Below, piece by piece: positions 28,233-42,638 of a DNA stretch of 64,000 bases. The notes beneath the pieces are model-generated. The model was given only the letters and a program-made list of their open reading frames with translations, ran no database searches and was not told the DNA's origin. The DNA lies in NCBI GenBank assembly GCA_964234715.1, contig OZ174276.1; one strand, given 5' to 3'. Within the stretch, counting starts at the first letter, position 1. Every line of letters begins with the position of its first letter. The DNA comes from Podarcis melisellensis. Lineage: Eukaryota. The position numbers and the translations under genes were made by a program.

Positions 28233-29164
28233 TGGGTGGGATTCATCTAAATTACTCTGATGGTGTTTCCTGCTTGGCAGGGGGTTGGACTCGATGGCCC
28301 TTGTGGTCTCTTCCAACTCTATGATTCTATATTGTCAGAGCGCATGCTGGTCAGTAAATCACACAAAGTTCAAAGTTGGAGTTAACTCTTTATTAGCAAA
28401 ACCATGATCTTGGCAGACTTGGTTGAGCATCACACCTAATGAACACAACAGCTCATTCCCTGTGGGTCTTACTCCATGAAATCAGTTGCCGATGCTGAAA
28501 GTCCCTGCCTTCCGACAGCTTGTGTCATCTGCTCTCCAGGGCTTTTCCCAAGCAGTCAGAGACCACGCCTTCATGCAGCCTATCATTGTTCTGCTCTTTT
28601 CAGCCCTCTTCTTGTTCTGGGAGACAGGGGGGAAGGGAGCTTCTTACAGCAGGAGGGGGAGACATCTGTGACACTAGCCTGACTCATCTCTTCCTCTTGC
28701 CTCTTGGCCTCCCTCCTTCCACTCTCTTGCTTCAGCATCTGCCTCTGATTCTGGGCTTATCTCTGCCACCGACTCTCCCAACTCACTCTCCCAAGCCCTG
28801 CTACCTCTTCAGCTTCTGAACCCTCCTCTTCCCAGTCTTCTCCCTTTTCTCCTTCTGACCATTCATCGCTGTCCCACCACCACTCCCAGGGCTCTGAACC
28901 TTCTTCCCTTGGGTGTTCCCCAGCTGGCTCCTCTCACCATTCATCCGTGTCCAACCAGTCCATGACAATTACTGTGTGCACAGACTGAAGTCTAGTCATG
29001 CAATCTTGCTTCCCCTCCCTCACCCCCTAAATCTGTTCGGGGGGGGGGTTGGGGAAACACCAAGAACAGATTTAGGAAGTGCACAAGGGGAGCAAATCTC
29101 ACTTTGTGAGTGGACTTCATTCTGTGCACCCATATCCCACTGAGCATGACCCTGAATTCCACCC
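28233..29164. mobile_element. Fold-back MITE hosting a CR1 3' fragment and LTR A
   Basis: Terminal gggtgggattca / tgaattccaccc inverted repeat; internal cctaaatctgttc / gaacagatttagg palindrome. Confidence 0.55.
28333..28967 (-). mobile_element. LTR-like element A (probably solo Gypsy-type LTR) with decayed internal ORF
   Basis: TGTCA...TGACA termini; minus-strand AATAAA at 28389-28394; homologous along its length to 35928-36528. No clean TSD seen. Confidence 0.7.
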
Positions 29165-29869
29165 AATGTGGTTAGTTGAAAATAGAAGAACTTGCCTCTG
29201 ATTTCTTCACAGGAACCAGCATTCAGAAGCATATTGCCGCTGATACTGGAGGCAATATATATCTAGCCTTTGTGACTAGCAGCCGTTGACAACCTTATCC
29301 TCTGTGAATGTGTGTAATTCCCTTTTAAACTATGAAATTCATTACCAAAAGATGTAGTGATAGATGCCATCAGTATAACTTGTGGTGGCAAATTCCATGA
29401 TTTAACTATGCATTATGCGAAAAAGCTCTTCCTTAATCAAATTTTGACAGTATGCTCTGTCAGGCCCTCATGTTGCAACACACACACAAATTCCCATTGC
29501 TCGGATGTAGCTGCAAGAATGGGGGTGAGGTGGAGGTCCTGGTGAACTCCTGCCTGAAATCAAGCATGACATGCAGACTACTATGACTACTCAGCAAACT
29601 TAATGGCAGAATCGGGATCTGAACTCTGATCTTCCTGTTCAAAGTTTAACACTATCCACGCTGGCACAGTTTGTCCTTCGCTGGAGGCTGAGCAGGGACA
29701 GCAATGGTCAGGGATATATTAAGTCAATGTGACAGACAGCAGTATATCTCACCTCCATGTAGTGGATTGGACAGATGACCTGGGATCACTTGCAGCCTCA
29801 CAATGCTTTGATTCTGCTGTGACTCAGTGCTTGTTAAACTAAAGGGCAATTTATATGGCCATGGTTATG

Positions 29870-30100
29870 GCTTAATTCAATCTGTGCAGCCACTGTTTTC
29901 TCCTAGCACGAATGGAACATGCGCATGGCAAACTGGTCATGTGCATCAGACCTCCATAAGCACAAACTGACAGCATGCCATCGATAAGCTGTGGGAGAAA
30001 ATCCACATAGCTCATTGTGAGCACGCCAGCGATTTGTGCTTGTGCCAGGCCAATGCACATGACCAGTTTGCCACAAGCACATTCATTCAGCTTATGCAGG
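29870..30100. repeat. Fold-back (hairpin) element
   Basis: Perfect 21-bp inverted repeat at 29926-29946 / 30053-30073, plus inner imperfect arms. Confidence 0.75.
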
Positions 30101-30799
30101 ATTGGGATGGCAGGGAAGGTGGTCTGCACAGTTTGCAAAACAAGCCCCCAAAGACTTGAGCAAATATGTGTAAAGATTGTTTCTCCCTGCACAGTGCTCT
30201 GCTGAATTTTGTACAGCGATAAGCAACATGGATTCCCTCTGTCACAATATAATTTTTTTTCTGACAGCCCCCAGGGAGGCCCTTCCATCTGCATGCCTGC
30301 CCAATAGGCTTAGGGTGTTCTCACAACTGATGCTAAAAATGGCTTCCAGTCTGGAATATGTCATTTGTGAATGTTATTAATGTGGAATACGGGGGGGAGA
30401 GAACCATTTTTAAAAGGAACGTACATTCTAGCCATTGTACGCTTTATATTTGTGTTACGGGTGCTTAAACTAAGTGAAGTGAACAGCATCTGTTTTTTTA
30501 AAAAAAATTAGCAAAGAGGATGGATTTTTGCAGATACCAAGGAAGAGATTGTAATCATCACTGTGTGAGAGCATGCATGCGATTTCAATTTAGGGATATG
30601 CTCAGATGTGTTTGTGTACTTGTGCGTACATTTATCATTTTCACCCTTTCACTAATTTCCCTTCAATAGAAGCTAAACCGGATTATTTATGAACTGTCAG
30701 TCCAGCTACTGCATGATTCCCCCCCCCCCCAGCTGCTTCCTTCTTCTTTTGGGGTTGGGCAGGAGACATAGGAGTGAACAGGTACATTTGCATAAATTT

Positions 30800-31800
30800 A
30801 TAGAATCATAGAATGGTACTGACCTGCCGGTAGTGGGTCTCCCCCCCTTTTTTGCCCACCTCCTGTCTGCAGGGACCTCACCTGTTCTCCAAGAATTCTC
30901 AAAAATATAGATAGAGGCTTTGAGATTACACCTGCAAGCTCCTTTAGTACCCTTGGATGCAGCTCATCAGGCCCTGGAGATCTGGATTCATTTAAAGTAG
31001 CTAGGTGTTCACATACCACCTCTTTTCCTGACTTTGGCTGCAGCTCCCTCTTTGCATTATTCTGTTATCACCAGGTTGGTCACTGCTTTCCTTTTGGGTA
31101 AAAACAGAGGCAAAGTAGGTGTTGAGCAGTTCCCTTTGTCCCCCAACAGCATTTCTCCATGCAGAGGACCGCTTGTTCTTGCTTCTGAACATAGCCAAAG
31201 TATCCTTTTAACTTTCCAGTGTGGTGTAGTGGTTAAGAGCGGTAGTCTCATAATCTGGGGAACCAGGTTCGCGTCTCCGCTCCTCCACATGCAGCTGCTG
31301 GGTGACCTTGGGCCAGTCACGCTTCTTTGAAGTCTCTCAGCCCCACTCACCTCACAGAGTGTTTGTTGTGGGGGAGGAAGGGAAAGGAGAATGTTAGCCG
31401 CTTTGAGACTCCTTCAAGGGAGTGAAAGGCGGGATATCAAATCCAAACTCTTATTCTCTCTTGCAAGCCTGAACTCATTCTGAGCTGTGGCCCACCTGAC
31501 CCTCCTGAAACTGTTGGCTACTTGTGTATACTCTTCCTTCGTGTTTTTCCCTTTCTCCCATTTCTTCTACATGCCCCTCTTACATCTGAGCTCATCTGCA
31601 AGCTCCTTAAGCAGCCACACCACTTTCTATAGATGCCGTCCACTTCTGTTTCTTGTTGGAATTGTCTGCATTTGAGCCTTCAATAGTTCACCTTTAAGAA
31701 ACTCCCATCCATCTTGGACTCCCTTCTCTTTTGAGTATTTCTGAGTATAGGATCTCATCCAGTAGTTCCTTAAGCTATTTGAAACCAGCCTCCTTAAAGT
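30800..31800 (-). mobile_element. CR1 LINE ORF2 remnant (internally deleted), split by a SINE
   Basis: Peptides KGVQDGWEFLKGELLKAQMQTIP, ELLNTYFASVFTQKE and SPGPDELHPRVLKELAGVISKPLSIF are CR1 ORF2 motifs; attctatgattctat-type tail at ~30800. Confidence 0.88.
31216..31456 (+). mobile_element. Squam3-like CORE-SINE inside CR1
   Basis: Near-identical to 4067-4327. Confidence 0.85.
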
Positions 31801-32837
31801 CCAAAGTATAAAGAGAAGATCCAACATCTTTGATTCAGGAAGGAGGCAGATCATAGGAATAGATTGCACTCTTTATAACTAAACTGGCATCCTTGGTGAA
31901 TTTTACCTCATTTCTGCATTACCTCTGTATATTCAGTAGAGGGATACAAAACTAAAATGAAGGAAGCACTCTTAATAAAAGGAGTGCAGTGCTGGCTGCA
32001 GACTTGAGTGCAAAATCTGAAGTGGTGAAACAGGGCCTAGAGAAAAGACACAAAAAAATGCTGGGGGTTGCACAACAAAATCTTGTCTGGACTTTGCCAC
32101 AAACAAAGACTCTGCCAATTGTACTATTGGGACAAGGAAGTCAGTAGCACCGGGGTTGACTTATGTGCTTGGACACCCACAGCCAGCCGGCTGGGTGTCA
32201 GCAAAAGCCTTCACCTGGAAATGCCTCCACATCCCAACCCACCCAAAAAGAACTGCAGGCGTTGAGTCAGTGGTTCAAGCATTCATGAACATCCTTTGAT
32301 TACTCACCAGGATGATTTGCAGCTGAAAGTGAAAACCAACTCCATAAAAAAGCAGAGCAACTGATGTGAAAATTCTATGTGGCTCATTCACATGAGCAAG
32401 TCCTCATTTGATGCTGCAGTAATGAAGAATAACCATATCTATGTGAACTGGCCCTTAGTTTGCATTTTATGGCTTCATTCATCCAATATTCACCTTCCTG
32501 CTATCTTTGCAAGGAGCCCCTAATAACAAATAAAAGGGTGTTGCTTCTAGCTGCTCTTTACACTGCTCTCTGGATTTCTCTATACACAATCTCTGACATC
32601 AGCGGACAGCCTTCCACCGCTCGCTCACATTTCGGATGCAACTGAGGCATGTAGGATTTCCTCCAAAGAGGTCAAAATAGTTTTCAAGGTCCCCACTCCA
32701 CCTCCTTCATCCTCACAACTCTGGGAGATAGTCAGAGAGTGACGGGTTCAAGGTCACCAGCAGATTTTACAGAAGTGCTGGGATCTGAACTCCCTCCAGT
32801 ACCACCCCTGTGCAAAGCCAAGGAGACTGCGCGACTG

Positions 32838-32963
32838 CCTCAGCCAGCAAAGCATGAGACGTTTAATCTCAGGGTTGTGGGGGTTGGGCAAAAAGATTCC
32901 TGCATTGCAAGAGGGTTGGGCTGGATGACCCTTGCGGGCCCTTCCAGCTCTGACATTCTATGA
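32838..32963 (+). mobile_element. tRNA-Lys/CR1-tail SINE
   Basis: agcatgagacgtttaatctcagggttgtgg...ttgggcaaaaagattcctgcattgc...attctatgat. Confidence 0.75.
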
Positions 32964-33139
32964 TGCCAACCCCAGCACCACACATACCAAGCAAAGTATA
33001 CCAATCCTCTACAGAAGTACCAGCAGTGGCGCAGTTAGGTGCTTTTAAACTCTGAACGCAACTGGGCTTTTCCAGACGTTAATGTGTTCCTTCAAGTCGC
33101 TTCAGAACGTGACTTACAACGTTTTGGGTCCCTCAGGAG

Positions 33140-33284
33140 CAGTGGCGTAGCGTGGGGGGTGCAGGGGGGCGGCCGCACCGGGCGCAACATCTGGGGGTTA
33201 GGGTTAGGGGGCGCAAATCCACGGGTTAGGGGGTGCAAATTACTTGCCTTGCCCCGGGTGCTGACAACCCACGCTACGCCACTG
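33140..33284. mobile_element. hAT MITE (145 bp)
   Basis: Perfect 17-bp TIR CAGTGGCGTAGCGTGGG; perfect 8-bp TSD CTCAGGAG at 33132-33139 and 33285-33292. Confidence 0.92.
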
Positions 33285-33305
33285 CTCAGGAGTGAGGCTG
33301 TGGAC

Positions 33306-33652
33306 CAGGGCCGGATTTAGGTTCGATGAGGCCCTAAGCTACGGAAGGTAATGGGGCCCTTTATATGTCCAGCTGTCCTTTGTCATCAAATTGTCGCTGT
33401 TTTTTGTGTTGAATATATGCCATATAGTAATTTATAGACCTAATAGGTATCTAAAGCCATTTTGCACATAACAAATAGGAGCCTACACAACACAAAACAC
33501 TGTTGCTGTATGTAGGTTTTATTTTATTTGTTTTTTATTTATATTTTGGAAATTTACATCCAGGTTTTTTTTGCTTTAAATTTTTTTGGGGGCCCCAAGA
33601 GAGTGGGGCCCTAAGCTATAGCTTGTTTAGCTTATACGTAAATCCGACACTG
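33306..33652. mobile_element. hAT MITE (347 bp)
   Basis: TIR CAGGGCCGGATTTA / TAAATCCGACACTG; 8-bp TSD CTGTGGAC / CTGCGGAC. Confidence 0.88.
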
Positions 33653-33679
33653 CTGCGGACTTGTGGCCCCAAAGTCTTG

Positions 33680-35300
33680 CGCTGACGCTCTCCCTAGTTA
33701 GCCCAAGTGAACTCTGCGAGACGGGCGGGCTTTTCCATCCCTGTAATTGCACGTGCCCGGCCCGCCAGTCCCTGCCAGCGTGCGAGCTTGTCATTGGCGG
33801 CGTCTCCTTCCCCCATCGCGGGGAGGCCGGGAGGCTGCTCGGGATAATTGGCTTTGAATCTGTTTACCTCAGCACTCGACGTCTCTCTCGCTCTCCGCTC
33901 CCACTTCGCCGCGGCGTCTCGGAAGCCACCTGGAGCTGCGCCCGCGTCCCCTTCTTCGCGCGTCGGGGGAAGAGGCAGCGAGGGACGCAGACAGGCAGGA
34001 GGGAGGAGGAGCAGCCGCCGGGCAAAGCCGCCTCGGGCAAAGCCGAGCCGAGCGCTTTAATTAGCGGGCGCTCCCCGAAGAAGAGAGGCGGCAACGCGGA
34101 AGAAGAAACGCCCGGCCGGCAAGGCGGCGTCACGCAATCGGCGGCGCCGTGTTTCCGTTTTTACGATTGTTTCTATTAGCCCGCCTTGCACCCGAACGCC
34201 CCAGGGCGGCCGACAGCAATAGAGCGAATGCAAATTAAAACCCAACCCCGCTTGCTCGATCCTCGCATATTCCTGCTTTGCAGAGGGTAGAGCTAGATGA
34301 CCCTCAGGGTCCCTTCCAACTCTACAATTTTATGATTTTAAAAGGGAAGAGTTTATCAGGGGTCTTTTCCCCAGCCGTTTCGAATAAAGCAGGCGGTGGG
34401 GGAACCCCAGCAAACCACCATGTCAGTTAAATGAACAACGCTCTTATTTGTGGGTTCTATAAATTGCCTTTTTTATTTGCGGCCTACAAGAACAGGCGTT
34501 TCGCGTGAGGCTCCCTCGCGCCCCCTGCGAGCGCCACGTGCTTCATTAGGGCCTGGAGTGTAGAAGAGGAAGAGAGCAGGGGGAGCGCATCCCGCTGCCA
34601 GCGCCGGCCCTCCGCGCGCTCCTAGGTGACCTCCTTTTGAATACCTCGTGGAAACTGGGCCAGATTATATGCTCATCAAACCATCAGTCGCCGCAGGCAG
34701 CGAGGGGAGGGGGTGGCTTTCTCGTCACCCAGTTTCCCACCAAGCACACACAGCTTGCCTTGCACCCCCCAACAGTGTCACCAAGCCTCCAAAAAGCTCT
34801 TCCCGTTCCTGGCACTTTCTTACTCCTGTGATGGCGTCGCTGGGCATCAGTGCGGCCTGTGTGATTTAGACGGTGTCTTGGCAGGAAGCGGAGAAGAAAT
34901 GGATGGAGAAATCGCGAGGGTTTGTGGCTGGAGCCCATGGATTCCTCCCCCTCCCCCCATCTCGAAACGCTGGGTCGGCGCCGCCGCCTGGATGGGAGAC
35001 GGGGTGGCCAACCTGTTGCCGCCGTCGAAGAGCTGTAAAGGGAGGCGAGAGAGGGGCAGTTTCACCCCTGGCAAGTCTTTTCCTGATGCAAGCCCTCTTC
35101 GGCCGCTTTTCTCCCAACTCGGCGTATTTCGAGACTCGGGGGGGAAACCGCGGCCGGATGGGCGAGGGAGCGCACGTACATGCACACACACACAAACACA
35201 CACTTTCTTGTGCGAGGTGTGCGAGTAGACAGTGGATTGGGGGCATCTCGGCGTGCTCGCGAGGAAAATGCTGCTGCAGCTGCTTGGCCCTGGTACAAAA
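33680..35300. promoter_or_regulatory. CpG island (enhancer- or promoter-like, no coding exon recognised)
   Basis: Dense CpG in mostly non-TE sequence; TAATTA, TTTTACGA (34159-34166) and octamer ATGCAAAT (34228-34235). Confidence 0.7.
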
Positions 35301-35593
35301 CCCACGCGCTTCAAAGCGATGTGTTGCACGGCAGACTGCTGTGACCATGTTGCTGGAAGCCAAGGAGGCGTCCTTAATGGAGCCTCGCTGTGTGGCAGGT
35401 GCAGGCAGGAACAGGATGATCGGTTGCCTATCTGGGCGTAAGGAAGGGAATGAGACTGCGGCTGAAAACCTGTAAACACACTCTTACCTGGGAGTTTGTG
35501 CCATAGAACGCCACCACACACAAGTCAGCATCACTCTCTGGATAATGCTTCACAAAACAGGAAGCTCCTTTCACCTGAAGGGAGAGAGAGAGA

Positions 35594-35725
35594 GATCAGT
35601 CAAAGGAGCATGAGACTCTTGAGCTCAGGGTCATGGGTTTGAGCCCCAAATTGGGCAAAAGATTCCTGCATTGCAGGGACTGGACTAGATGACTCTTATG
35701 GTCCCAACTCTAGAATTCTGTGACT
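35594..35725 (+). mobile_element. tRNA-Lys/CR1-tail SINE
   Basis: gagcatgagactcttgagctcagggtcatgggtttgagcccc..ttgggcaaaagattcctgcattgcagg. Confidence 0.75.
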
Positions 35726-35927
35726 CTCTGAAACCCAAAGGAAAATGAGAAGAGTTTTCACTTCTCCCTTTGCTAACTTTTCCCCACATTGGTTGGCTGA
35801 GTCAGTTTCCCTTCACAAATCAAGAGTTTGCCCTGGAATGTGCCCACCTAACCTGCCTCACACACATTGCAGGGAAGGATGAGTTACAGAAGACTAGCTT
35901 TCCAGAAGCTTGTCTTCCGTCACTGAA

Positions 35928-36528
35928 TGTTAAGTCCAGAGCCAGGAGCTGGTCAGCCAGGAGCTGGTCAGCAACTCAGTGTCCATGAAGTTAACTCTTT
36001 ATTCAAAGAAATCAAAACAGCTCAGGCCTAGTGATCATAGCAGCTCTTCCCAGTAGGTCTTGCCCCAATGAGGCAGTTGCAAGGACTGGAGGACCCTGCC
36101 TTCCTACAGCTCTCGAGTTTCCTCCTCCCCCAGGTCCTTCCCCAGCAACCTGAGGCTCCTTCATCTTGTTTCTCTTTGCTCTGCCTTCTTCATTTCCCCT
36201 GATTTCTAGGAGACCAGAAGGGAGAGGAGCTGGTTACAGCAGGAGCAGGAGACTCCCTGGCTTCTTCAGCAGCCTGCCTCTACTCTACCTCTTGCCTCCC
36301 CTTCCTCTCCAGTCTCTGCTTCTGCCTCTGCTTCTGGACCTCTCTCTGCCACAGCCTCTTCCTGCTCACTAAACCCTGTTGCCTTTTCAGCTTCTGACAC
36401 CTCCAATTCTGCTCCTACTTTGCCCTCTGACCACTCATCTTCGTCCCACCACCAATCCCTTTTCTCTGAGTATTTCCTCCCTGGGGGTTCCCTCCCACCA
36501 CTCCTCTGCATTCGGCCGGTCCATGACA
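35928..36528 (-). mobile_element. LTR-like element B, probably a 3' LTR with short internal remnant to ~36855
   Basis: Ends ccatgaca like element A; shares the ctggtcag...agttaactctttatt block; purine-rich AGGGAATG abuts it on the minus strand (PPT-like); tgtcagagccag at 36844 resembles a second LTR terminus. Confidence 0.65.
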
Positions 36529-41011: not shown

Positions 41012-42323
41012 CCGTATTTTTCGCACCATAGGACGCACTTTTTGCCCTCCAAGAATGAAGAGGAAATGTGTGTGCGTCCTATGGTGCGAATGCAGGCTTT
41101 GCTGAAGCTGGAGAGCGAGAGGGGTCGGTGCGCACCGACCCCTCTCACTCTCCAGGCTTCAGGAAAGCCCCACCGCCAGCCCCACAAGCTCGGGGGACAG
41201 CGGGGAGGCGGAACGCCACCATCCCGCTGTCCCCCGACTTGGTTAGAAGGGTGGCGGGGGGAGAAGCCTGCTCCTCCCTGTCGCCAGCCCCGCAAACTCG
41301 GGGGACAGCGGGAGAGGCGTAGCGCGCCCGTCCCGCTGTCCCCCGACTTGGCTAGAAGGCTGGCGGGGGGGGGGGGGAAGAAGCCTGCTCCTCCCCGTCG
41401 CCAGCCCCGCAAACTCGGGAGACAGCGGGAGAGGCGCAGCGCGCCCTCCCGCTGTCTCCCGACATGGTTTAGAGGCTGGCGGAGGGCTTCCTCCTCCCTC
41501 AGCCCTGCAAGCTCCCAGAGCGATGCCAAAGCTGCGCGCAGCTTCGGCATGGCTCTGGGTCCCGTTCTGGGGGAGGGGGAAGCTCGGGCTTCCCCCGCCC
41601 CAGCCCCTCGTCTCCAGCCGGGAGACGGTTGCGGGGGGCTGCTTTAGCCCCGCGCATGCTCTCCCGGCTGGAGAGGTGACGCGCGCCTATGGAGGCTCCT
41701 GCCATAGGCGCGCGTCACCTCTCCAGCCGGGAGAGGGTCGCGGGGGGCTGCTTTAGCCCCCTGCGTGCTCTCCCGGCTGGAGAGGTGACGCGCGCCTATG
41801 GAGGCTCCTGCCATAGGCGCGCGTCACCTCTCCAGCCGGGAGAGGGTCGCGGGGGGCTGCTTTAGGAGTATCCATAGGCGCGCGTCACCTCTCCAGCCGG
41901 GAGAGCACGCACGGGGCTAAAGCAGCCCCCCCGCGACCCTCTCCCGGCTGGAGAGGTGACGCGCGCCTATGGCCGCTGCTCCCTGACCTGCTCTTTGGGG
42001 CTGGTGGTGGGCTTCCCCCGCCAGCCCCAAAGAGCAGGTCGAAAGGAACCTGAAGCCTGGAGAGCGAGAGGGGTCGGTGCGCACCGACCCCTCTCGCTCT
42101 CCAGGCTTCCAAGGTAGCCGCCTGAACGCACCTTAAACGGCACCTTGTTTTAGAGCGGGAAAACAAAAGGGGGAAAATTCTCCCACTCTCTGCGCAGCGC
42201 CTCCTGCCGCTTCGCTGAAGGGGCGCTGGGCAGAGAGCAGAAGAATTTTTTTCCCTTGTTCTCCCCCCTCTAAAACAAGGTGCGTCCTATTGTCCGGTGC
42301 GTCCTATGGTGCGAAAAATACGG
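41012..42323. mobile_element. Non-autonomous Tc1/mariner (Tc2/pogo-like) element
   Basis: Perfect 27-bp TIR CCGTATTTTTCGCACCATAGGACGCAC; TA on both flanks; subterminal repeats of gtgcgtcctat; no transposase. Confidence 0.92.
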
Positions 42324-42638
42324 TAATTATTATAGGGGTTCTAGCGCACCTGTGCAGACGTTACCGTTGCGAACTTAAAGGGGAATGTTATAAACTCTGC
42401 TGATATATTGGGAACTTGTTAGCACAAATTGGATTAGGATATAATCTCACAATATATCCTCTCCTGCACCCCTGAACATTCCCACACCTTTACTTTTAAC
42501 CACTTTAACCATTGCGTGGATAAAGATACTGATTGTCGTTGGGGGCAGTAGACAAGTATGGCACAATCCTATGCATGTTTAGGCAGAAGCAAGTCCCACT
42601 GTACTGAATTGAATTTACTCCCCTGTATGTGTCACAGA

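What the first reader, a model, noticed from the sequence alone, without database searches (positions are those of the whole stretch)
28333..36528. LTRs that appear to encode a protein: a conserved Trp/acidic ORF ending in an RRSxRL motif, starting at LTR nucleotide 5
Seen: two diverged LTR-like elements (A 28333-28967, B ~35928-36528, both minus) each begin TGTC-ATG. Corrected for frameshifts, A reads MDWLDTDEW*EEPAGEHPREEGSEPWEWWWDSDEWSEG..EEEGSEAEEVAGLG/SELGESVAEISPESEADAE..ARGRDE/SPPPAVRSSLPPLSPRTRRGLKRAEQ**AA*RRGL*LLGK. B reads MDRPNAEEWWEGTPREE/SEKRDWWWDEDEWSEG..EVSEAEKATGFSEQEEAVAERGPEAEAEAE..ARGRVE/SPAPAVTSSSPFWSPR/MKKAEQRETR*RSLRLLGK. Differences in conserved blocks are mostly synonymous: gat gaa tgg tca gaa gga vs gat gag tgg tca gag ggc; cca agg gaa vs ccc agg gag; ctg ctt ggg aaa vs ttg ctg ggg aag. 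Several TGA stops sit where Arg is expected, consistent with CGA decay. Established: U3-overlapping ORFs exist in retroviruses (MMTV sag, HIV nef); RRSARL is the nucleosome-binding core of HMGN proteins; aromatic residues in acidic tracts typify activation domains. Inference: the ancestral element encoded a ~140-aa accessory protein wholly inside its LTR, possibly a chromatin-tethered transactivator or anti-silencing factor that would also spread with solo LTRs. I do not know a description of this, but cannot exclude one. Both copies here are dead.
Basis: partly seen in the sequence, partly recalled or inferred. Interest (0 to 1): 0.85.

Follow-up and report, generated by a model that had tools for sequence, protein, structure and literature searches.

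The report
Integrase tail encoded inside retrotransposon LTR
Two dead terminal repeats of a lizard-type jumping gene carry a real, once-selected reading frame that is most likely the tail end of the element's integrase protein running into the repeat, a tail predicted to help it grip chromatin, rather than a separate gene.

Summary
A (28333-28967) and B (35928-36528) are solo LTRs of one large, old family with 5-bp target duplications. The frame from LTR nt 5 is real. In 111 copies, shared variants are depleted of amino-acid changes in that frame only (odds 0.38, p=1e-4), and 7 of 8 shared indels keep the frame. It is most likely not an accessory gene. In 8 of 8 intact Ty3/gypsy (Tf1/sushi-type) Pol frames of this genome, Pol runs through the polypurine tract 100-218 codons into the 3' LTR in the same register. 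These tails are acidic, then basic, and one ends in RRSARL. A homologous sister LTR (hhalign 90%) has no ATG and joins a chromodomain. Self-primer positions put the predicted transcription start at or after the frame's end, so a solo LTR would not transcribe it from its own promoter. The A/B parent itself was not found (0 of 243 insertions). Plant CRM elements have the same layout. My 10 paper searches found no vertebrate description, but Repbase/Dfam and Butler 2001 were not available. Chromatin tethering is untested. The scan held no look-alike by sequence.

The parts
28333..28967 (-). Solo LTR A (A-type subfamily), TGTCA...TGACA, dead
   Evidence: falls in the A-type group of the copy tree
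28520..28963 (-). Remnant of the U3 reading frame in A, starting at LTR nt 5; inferred C-terminal tail of Pol/integrase; broken by stops and frameshifts
   Evidence: family-level selection
28553..28621 (-). Pro-hinge and basic segment in A, including the RRSxRL-like position; predicted to be the only helix of the product
   Evidence: codons 96-137 carry the strongest selection signal (odds 0.33, p=0.0015)
28522..28534 (-). Position of the predicted self-primer and transcription start at the end of the frame in A (decayed here)
   Evidence: inferred; position
28389..28394 (-). AATAAA polyadenylation signal of A
35928..36528 (-). Solo LTR B (B-type subfamily), dead; 3' end approximate, with a 15-bp duplication at 35940-35972
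36113..36524 (-). Remnant of the U3 reading frame in B; broken by stops and frameshifts
36146..36160 (-). RSLRL-coding segment of the basic motif in B
36112..36124 (-). Position of the predicted self-primer and transcription start at the end of the frame in B (decayed here)
   Evidence: inferred; position
35998..36003 (-). AATAAA polyadenylation signal of B

Best explanation
A and B are dead solo LTRs whose real, once-selected reading frame is most likely the last ~137 codons of Pol (the integrase C-terminal tail) of an extinct Tf1/sushi-type Ty3/gypsy chromovirus, a tail predicted to help tether the integration complex to chromatin. Shown in intact sister elements of this genome: Pol does not stop after the chromodomain region but crosses the polypurine tract and fills most of U3 of the 3' LTR, in the register in which LTR nt 5 starts a codon. 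Inferred for A/B: the parent did the same, and its ATG is an internal Met made by the integrase attachment site TGTCA plus the next letters. Predicted from self-primer positions: transcription starts at or just after the end of the frame, so the tail would be made only from the 3' end of the full-length RNA. Recombination between LTRs then left thousands of solo copies that decay neutrally. Function is inferred and untested: a disordered acidic spacer ending in one Arg-rich helix, likely a nucleosome or target-DNA tether (about 0.5), a nuclear localisation signal (about 0.25) or something else (about 0.25).
For: (1) Selection in this frame only: (111 copies picked by DNA or pattern; shared variants N/S odds 0.38, p=1.2e-4; other five frames 0.60-2.07; rare variants equal for synonymous, nonsynonymous and stop changes; shared indels frame-keeping 7 of 8 versus 84 of 286 rare ones and 2 of 9 after the stop). 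(2) 8 of 8 Pol or Gag-Pol frames of 1300+ codons examined (L124-L128, L260, L267, L268) end 100-218 codons inside the 3' LTR in this register; Pfam finds RT, RNase H, integrase and SH3_Tf2-1 in L124, L125 and L126, and a chromodomain in L126. (3) The L260 family has its own ATG at LTR nt 5 in frame with Gag-Pol and ends in RRSARL; the same tail is inside UniRef A0A670IJD3. (4) Sister family C is homologous to A/B (hhalign 89.9%, E 1.7e-6, both ends colinear), has no ATG in 30 of 30 loci, and is in register with a chromodomain in L352, L370 and the C8 cluster L265/L340-342. (5) In 9 of 9 intact elements a 9-11 nt LTR stretch is complementary to the bases after the 5' LTR, at LTR nt 280-640 (0-4 of 500 shuffles reach it in the 7 tested); this is the Tf1/sushi self-primer, which marks the RNA 5' end (10.1101/2022.12.06.519325, passages). 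64 of 112 A/B copies carry L124's primer within 2 mismatches at the end of the frame, versus 1 elsewhere. (6) Tails of intact families have dN/dS 0.24-0.41, like A- versus B-type (pN/pS 0.37-0.39).
Against: No copy of the A/B family was found joined to gag or pol: 0 of 243 unique insertions in 259 loci, so read-through in this family is inferred. Three independent family C junction copies (L263, L233, L363) and L182, whose LTR starts with the same 13 nt as A, are out of register; each has its own indel, while the in-register spacing is the shared one. BLASTP between an A/B copy and the L260 tail is not significant (E 0.23), and the A/B profile scores most sister tails no better than shuffles (best L211, 0 of 200). 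The between-group count alone is not significant against within-group departures (Fisher p 0.07-0.11); codons 1-45 and 46-95 are not significant on their own. RRSxRL is not universal: family C and the L126, L130 and L211 tails end in other basic strings.
Confidence: 0.87

Rival explanations
1. The frame was a separate accessory protein started at the ATG at LTR nt 5 and made from a spliced or internally started RNA, like retroviral U3-overlapping genes.
For: ATG is present in 95 of 133 aligned copies and the stop column is conserved (TAG or TAA in 91 of 133); the ATG has G at -3 and +4 (sequence); no parent of A/B was found to prove read-through; ATG at nt 5 also occurs in the L260, L211/L227, L205 and L182 LTRs.
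Against: The homologous family C has no ATG; where an ATG-bearing family is intact the ATG is internal to Gag-Pol; the predicted start of transcription lies after the frame.
Confidence: 0.07
2. Both uses: the tail is part of Pol, but it is released as its own small protein, by protease cleavage or from the ATG on host read-through RNA, and acts apart from integrase.
For: The tail is disordered apart from one helix (pLDDT 55, helix 114-129); lacertid gene models run in frame from SCAN-gene exons into the LTR frame, though these are automatic predictions.
Against: Copies decay neutrally after insertion (rare variants); only 2 of 123 copies with an intact TGTCATG are still open over the frame to about its end, and these came from a protein-picked set.
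Confidence: 0.04
3. The frame is a by-product of a purine-rich U3 with few stop codons and has no protein function.
For: U3 is rich in G and A; A versus B directly shows mostly amino-acid changes.
Against: Frame-specific synonymous excess among shared variants and frame-keeping shared indels; dN/dS 0.24-0.41 in tails of intact families.
Confidence: 0.02

Closest known systems
Plant CRM-clade group A chromoviruses (CR motif / putative targeting domain); also beet Beetle7 and Bingo1-4,7
   Same: [quoted passage not shown]
   Different: Plant elements prime on tRNA-Met and the CR motif replaces the chromodomain. Here several families keep a chromodomain and add the tail, the elements show self-primers, and the tail is acidic then Arg-rich. 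Similarity to the CR motif sequence was not tested.
Vertebrate Tf1/sushi chromoviruses (sushi-ichi group)
   Same: Domain order with SH3 and chromodomain, att motif TGTYANR...CNTNACA and AATAAA near the LTR end (PMC3601003, passages and Table 3), self-priming (10.1101/2022.12.06.519325, passages).
   Different: The frog relative P0025 stops at the polypurine tract, carp relatives run on only about 30 low-information residues, and most fungal ones stop 28-76 residues after the chromodomain. The lizard families run 100-218 selected codons into U3. One unnamed Logan protein (P0036) has a similar tail.
HMGN / Dsup nucleosome-binding motif (RRSARLSA), and the Arg anchors of foamy virus Gag and MLV p12
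   Same: The L260 family tail has PRRSARL; HMGN RRSAR and Dsup PPRRSSRL bind the H2A-H2B acidic patch (PMC12487698, abstract and passages); retroviral integration complexes use such anchors (PMC11054761, passage).
   Different: Here the motif sits on an inferred integrase tail, A/B have only an RRSxRL-like version, other families lack it, and binding is untested. Six residues can arise by convergence or chance.
Retroviral U3-overlapping genes (MMTV sag, HIV nef, foamy virus bet/tas) - recalled, from no call
   Same: Coding sequence inside U3 of the LTR.
   Different: Those are separate proteins from their own mRNAs in retroviruses; here the frame is continuous with Pol in intact relatives and the start codon is not conserved.

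Membership tests
Tf1/sushi chromovirus (Ty3/gypsy) LTR | TG...CA termini of the TGTYANR / CNTNACA type and AATAAA near the 3' end | tested here: met
   motif from PMC3601003 Table 3 (the rGmr1 motif fits too)
Tf1/sushi chromovirus (Ty3/gypsy) LTR | 5-bp target site duplication | tested here: met
   exact 5-mers in 39 of 190 copies, 4-mers 2, 6-mers 0; A and B themselves have lost theirs
Tf1/sushi chromovirus (Ty3/gypsy) LTR | Attached to gag-pol with a chromodomain integrase | tested here: inconclusive
   0 of 243 A/B insertions have internal sequence; met for homologous family C and L182
Tf1/sushi chromovirus (Ty3/gypsy) LTR | Self-priming: LTR stretch complementary to the primer-binding site | tested here: inconclusive
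   met in 9 of 9 intact sister elements; for A/B only the primer-like 11-mer is seen (64 of 112 copies), no primer-binding site
Tf1/sushi chromovirus (Ty3/gypsy) LTR | Placement in the clade by RT-integrase phylogeny | not tested
   no reference tree built; nearest named proteins are vertebrate gypsy and fungal Tf2-type polyproteins
CRM group A (CR motif) | Pol frame extends into the 3' LTR | tested here: inconclusive
   met in 8 of 8 intact sister Pol frames; inferred for A/B
CRM group A (CR motif) | tRNA-Met primer-binding site | tested here: not met
   sister elements show self-primer complementarity instead
CRM group A (CR motif) | CR motif in place of a chromodomain | tested here: not met
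   chromodomain kept in L126, L182, L260 relatives and family C; no Pfam chromodomain in L124 and L125; CR motif sequence not compared
CRM group A (CR motif) | Centromeric localisation | not tested
   listed A/B hits are spread along most large contigs; centromeres not mapped
Retroviral U3 accessory gene | Own conserved start codon | tested here: not met
   absent in 30 of 30 family C loci, whose frame is homologous
Retroviral U3 accessory gene | Separate or spliced mRNA | tested here: inconclusive
   thin reads from a related species on L260 show no splice joint or start site
HMGN-type nucleosome-binding motif | RRSAR core sequence | tested here: inconclusive
   exact RRSARL in the L260 family; A/B have RRSxRL-like variants; absent in other tails
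HMGN-type nucleosome-binding motif | Binds the H2A-H2B acidic patch | not testable with these tools
   needs a binding assay; PMC12487698 reports that AlphaFold 3 misplaces even HMGN2

The most novel reading that the evidence does not exclude
Lizard chromoviruses turned nearly all of U3 into coding sequence for an integrase tail that ends in an HMGN-mimicking arginine anchor, tethering the integration complex to the nucleosome acidic patch alongside or instead of the chromodomain. This would be an animal counterpart of the plant CR motif. ATG-bearing families would also have left thousands of ready-made coding cassettes that host SCAN zinc-finger genes can read into.
Probability: 0.3. Interest if true: 0.7.

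Novelty: new variant of a known kind. Interest (0 to 1): 0.45.

Why it matters
How LTR retrotransposons choose insertion sites is settled for only a few elements. If the tail is a chromatin tether, these lizard families give a vertebrate system with intact members, a fast-evolving 100-220 residue module and a defined candidate motif, and they would show that plants (CRM) and reptiles both placed integrase-tail sequence inside the LTR. In practice it explains why solo LTRs of these families look like small genes and enter lacertid gene models, and it lets dead solo-LTR families be linked to their parents through the tail and the self-primer.

Tried and rejected
A and B as two ends of one element: rejected. 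Finding the A/B parent: DNA searches, protein search, four junction patterns, chromodomain-side searches and 120 further fetched copies gave none; L229 and the C8 cluster had purine-rich flanks but no pol. Homologue searches: nothing at near length; longer proteins gave 2 Zootoca SCAN gene models; the representatives search gave 14 short predicted proteins that are LTR pieces, 2 of the 9 looked up named as Podarcis lilfordi hypothetical proteins; no Pfam family (17), no meaningful solved-structure match, no Atlas hit. AlphaFold gave a low-confidence model, so no fold search was run. No complex prediction was run: no histone sequence was at hand and the cited cryo-EM paper reports failure for this motif. 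RNA: no RNA holder listed for A. Reads of a related species on L260 were thin (126-292 per run), deeper over the LTR than the interior, and 52-74% ran on into unlike flanks, as solo-LTR read-through would; they showed no splice joints or start sites and are not used as evidence. The sigma-70 scan does not apply to a eukaryote. Copies picked by protein similarity (L061-L090, L399-L478) were left out of the selection test because they are biased toward open frames; L090 served only as a coordinate frame, and L013 was dropped as a duplicate. Recalled resemblances of the Trp-acidic part to activation domains or kinesin/Arp2-3 ligands were not pursued, since that part is missing from most sister tails.
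Full report
Observation. Both elements are present as described on the minus strand. The window lies in a 1.57-Gb eukaryotic assembly; named protein hits to the family come only from lacertid lizards. DNA searches with A and B gave 4240 and 4520 first-look candidates and a protein search 9297; these are not copy numbers. The copies are solo LTRs of about 600 bp with exact 5-bp target duplications in 39 of 190 testable copies (4-bp 2, 6-bp 0). They differ from their group's commonest base by 15-17% on average, so the family is old. A and B belong to two subfamilies and no gag or pol lies between them.

The frame is real. In 133 aligned copies the triplet at LTR nt 5 is ATG in 95 (13 gapped) and codon 138 is a stop in 91. 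Natural copy L090 is open from that ATG to that stop, 137 codons. I tested selection on 111 copies picked by DNA or pattern, leaving out CpG-prone sites and stratifying by transition and transversion. Variants shared by 15% or more of copies are depleted of amino-acid changes in this frame (odds 0.38, p=1.2e-4). The other five frames give 0.60-2.07 and the region after the stop 0.76-1.62. Rare variants are equally frequent whether synonymous, nonsynonymous or stop-making, as expected for decay after insertion. Shared indels keep the frame in 7 of 8 cases, against 84 of 286 rare indels and 2 of 9 shared indels after the stop. The signal is strongest in codons 96-137 (p=0.0015) and not significant in codons 1-45 or 46-95 alone. 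Between A- and B-type groups pN/pS is 0.37-0.39, but that count alone is not significant against within-group departures.

What the frame is. I fetched 23 integrase-bearing elements. All 8 with a Pol or Gag-Pol frame of 1300 codons or more run through the polypurine tract and end 100-218 codons inside the 3' LTR, in the register in which LTR nt 5 begins a codon. Of the other 15, six (L129, L130, L135, L138, L141, L142) also cross in register, L136 and L139 cross out of register, and seven are broken earlier or lack a long frame across a findable junction. Over 108 loci with an integrase end (many redundant, and many from one family), 47 are in register and open, 1 in register with a stop, 25 out of register and 35 had no junction found. 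The tails are mostly acidic, then Pro-rich, then basic in the last 40 residues (+7 to +11), with dN/dS 0.24-0.41 against 0.06-0.11 for the 500 codons upstream. The L260 family has identical or nearly identical LTRs, an ATG at LTR nt 5 that is internal to a 1575-codon Gag-Pol, and PRRSARL near its end. An automatically annotated Podarcis muralis Pol (UniRef A0A670IJD3) contains the same tail.

Links to A/B. A sister family C is homologous over both ends of the frame (hhalign 89.9%, E 1.7e-6; nhmmer E 2e-5 to 5e-4 for L263 and L264, reversed controls 0.28 or worse). It has no ATG at nt 5 in any of 30 loci (27 AGG, one of them mis-anchored). Its frame is in register with a chromodomain in L352, L370 and one C8 cluster, and out of register in L263, L233 and L363, each through a different indel; the in-register spacing is shared with the intact L260. 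L182, whose LTR begins with the same 13 nt as A, follows an integrase chromodomain and polypurine tract but is also out of register. In 9 of 9 intact elements a 9-11 nt LTR stretch is complementary to the bases just after the 5' LTR (shuffles 0-4 of 500 in the 7 tested). This is the self-primer of Tf1/sushi elements, which lies at the RNA 5' end (10.1101/2022.12.06.519325, passages). It sits about 35 nt after the Pol stop in L260, L267 and L268 and in the last codons of the tail in the others. L124's primer encodes the last three residues and the stop of its Pol; 64 of 112 A/B copies carry it within two mismatches at the end of their frame, versus one elsewhere. The A/B frame is therefore predicted to lie in U3, upstream of the transcription start.

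What is missing. No A/B copy joined to gag or pol was found in 243 unique insertions, so read-through in this family is inferred. Similarity to the intact young tails is architectural and mostly not significant by BLAST or HMM.

Likely function. The product is predicted to be disordered with one helix at residues 114-129 (low confidence), the basic and most constrained part. HMGN and Dsup bind the nucleosome acidic patch through RRSAR and RRSSR (PMC12487698, abstract and passages), and foamy virus Gag and MLV p12 use Arg anchors to tether integration complexes (PMC11054761, passage). I rate a chromatin or target-DNA tether at about 0.5, a nuclear localisation signal at 0.25 and other roles at 0.25. 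The motif is not shared by all families, and nothing here tests binding.

Comparison with what is known. Pol extending into the 3' LTR is described for plant CRM group A, where the LTR encodes the CR motif, and for some beet elements (PMC3059260, PMC3605345, passages). The LTR ends fit the sushi motif (PMC3601003, passages and Table 3). PMC11011659 (passages) confirms active metaviruses in reptiles; the passages seen do not mention the tail. Ten searches (listings and abstract starts only, except the papers named) showed no description of a U3-encoded Pol tail in vertebrate chromoviruses. Butler et al. 2001, Repbase and Dfam were not available and may mention it; no supplements were read. MMTV sag, HIV nef and foamy virus bet/tas are recalled, from no call. 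The scan's own notes held no look-alike by sequence and one loosely related, unchecked note on a fungal element.

Verdict. A real, formerly selected frame, most likely the integrase tail of a chromovirus (0.87) and not a separate accessory gene (0.07). It is a new variant of a known layout, with a testable chromatin-anchor hypothesis. Interest 0.45.

Noticed in passing
L284, L300, L310 and L173 (G000 C8:86.05 and 90.0-90.3 Mb, C4:101.36 Mb): SCAN-domain genes carry an A/B-family LTR shortly after an exon (L284, L300, L310; remnant in L173); Zootoca and Podarcis gene models (P0006, P0007, P0011) read in frame from a SCAN-gene exon into the LTR frame. Probably one old insertion copied with the gene cluster; the fusions are automatic predictions.
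   Followed up: partly
L124, L125, L127: The families with the longest tails (207-218 residues) show no Pfam chromodomain in the two tested, unlike L126; the tail may replace it, as in CRM.
   Followed up: no
L229:1515-2356: A B-type LTR is nested inside an A-type LTR, near the basic motif.
   Followed up: no
L182:4089-4700: A chromovirus 3' LTR is interrupted by another LTR that is followed by a tRNA-like primer-binding site, probably an endogenous retrovirus (type recalled).
   Followed up: no
G000 contig C19: Very rich in young integrase-bearing elements but absent from the 230 listed A/B hits; it may be a repeat-rich sex chromosome.
   Followed up: no
window 41095-42325: GC-rich palindromic tandem arrays with 109- and 117-bp units.
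   Followed up: no
window 33600-35300: CpG-rich stretch about 0.6 kb from LTR B, with an exon-like segment near 35510-35600; the host gene was not identified.
   Followed up: no
P0036 and P0052: An unnamed Logan polyprotein has an acidic-then-basic tail after the chromodomain, and an unnamed ENA polyprotein ends with RRSARL shortly after it, so the layout or motif may occur outside lacertids.
   Followed up: no
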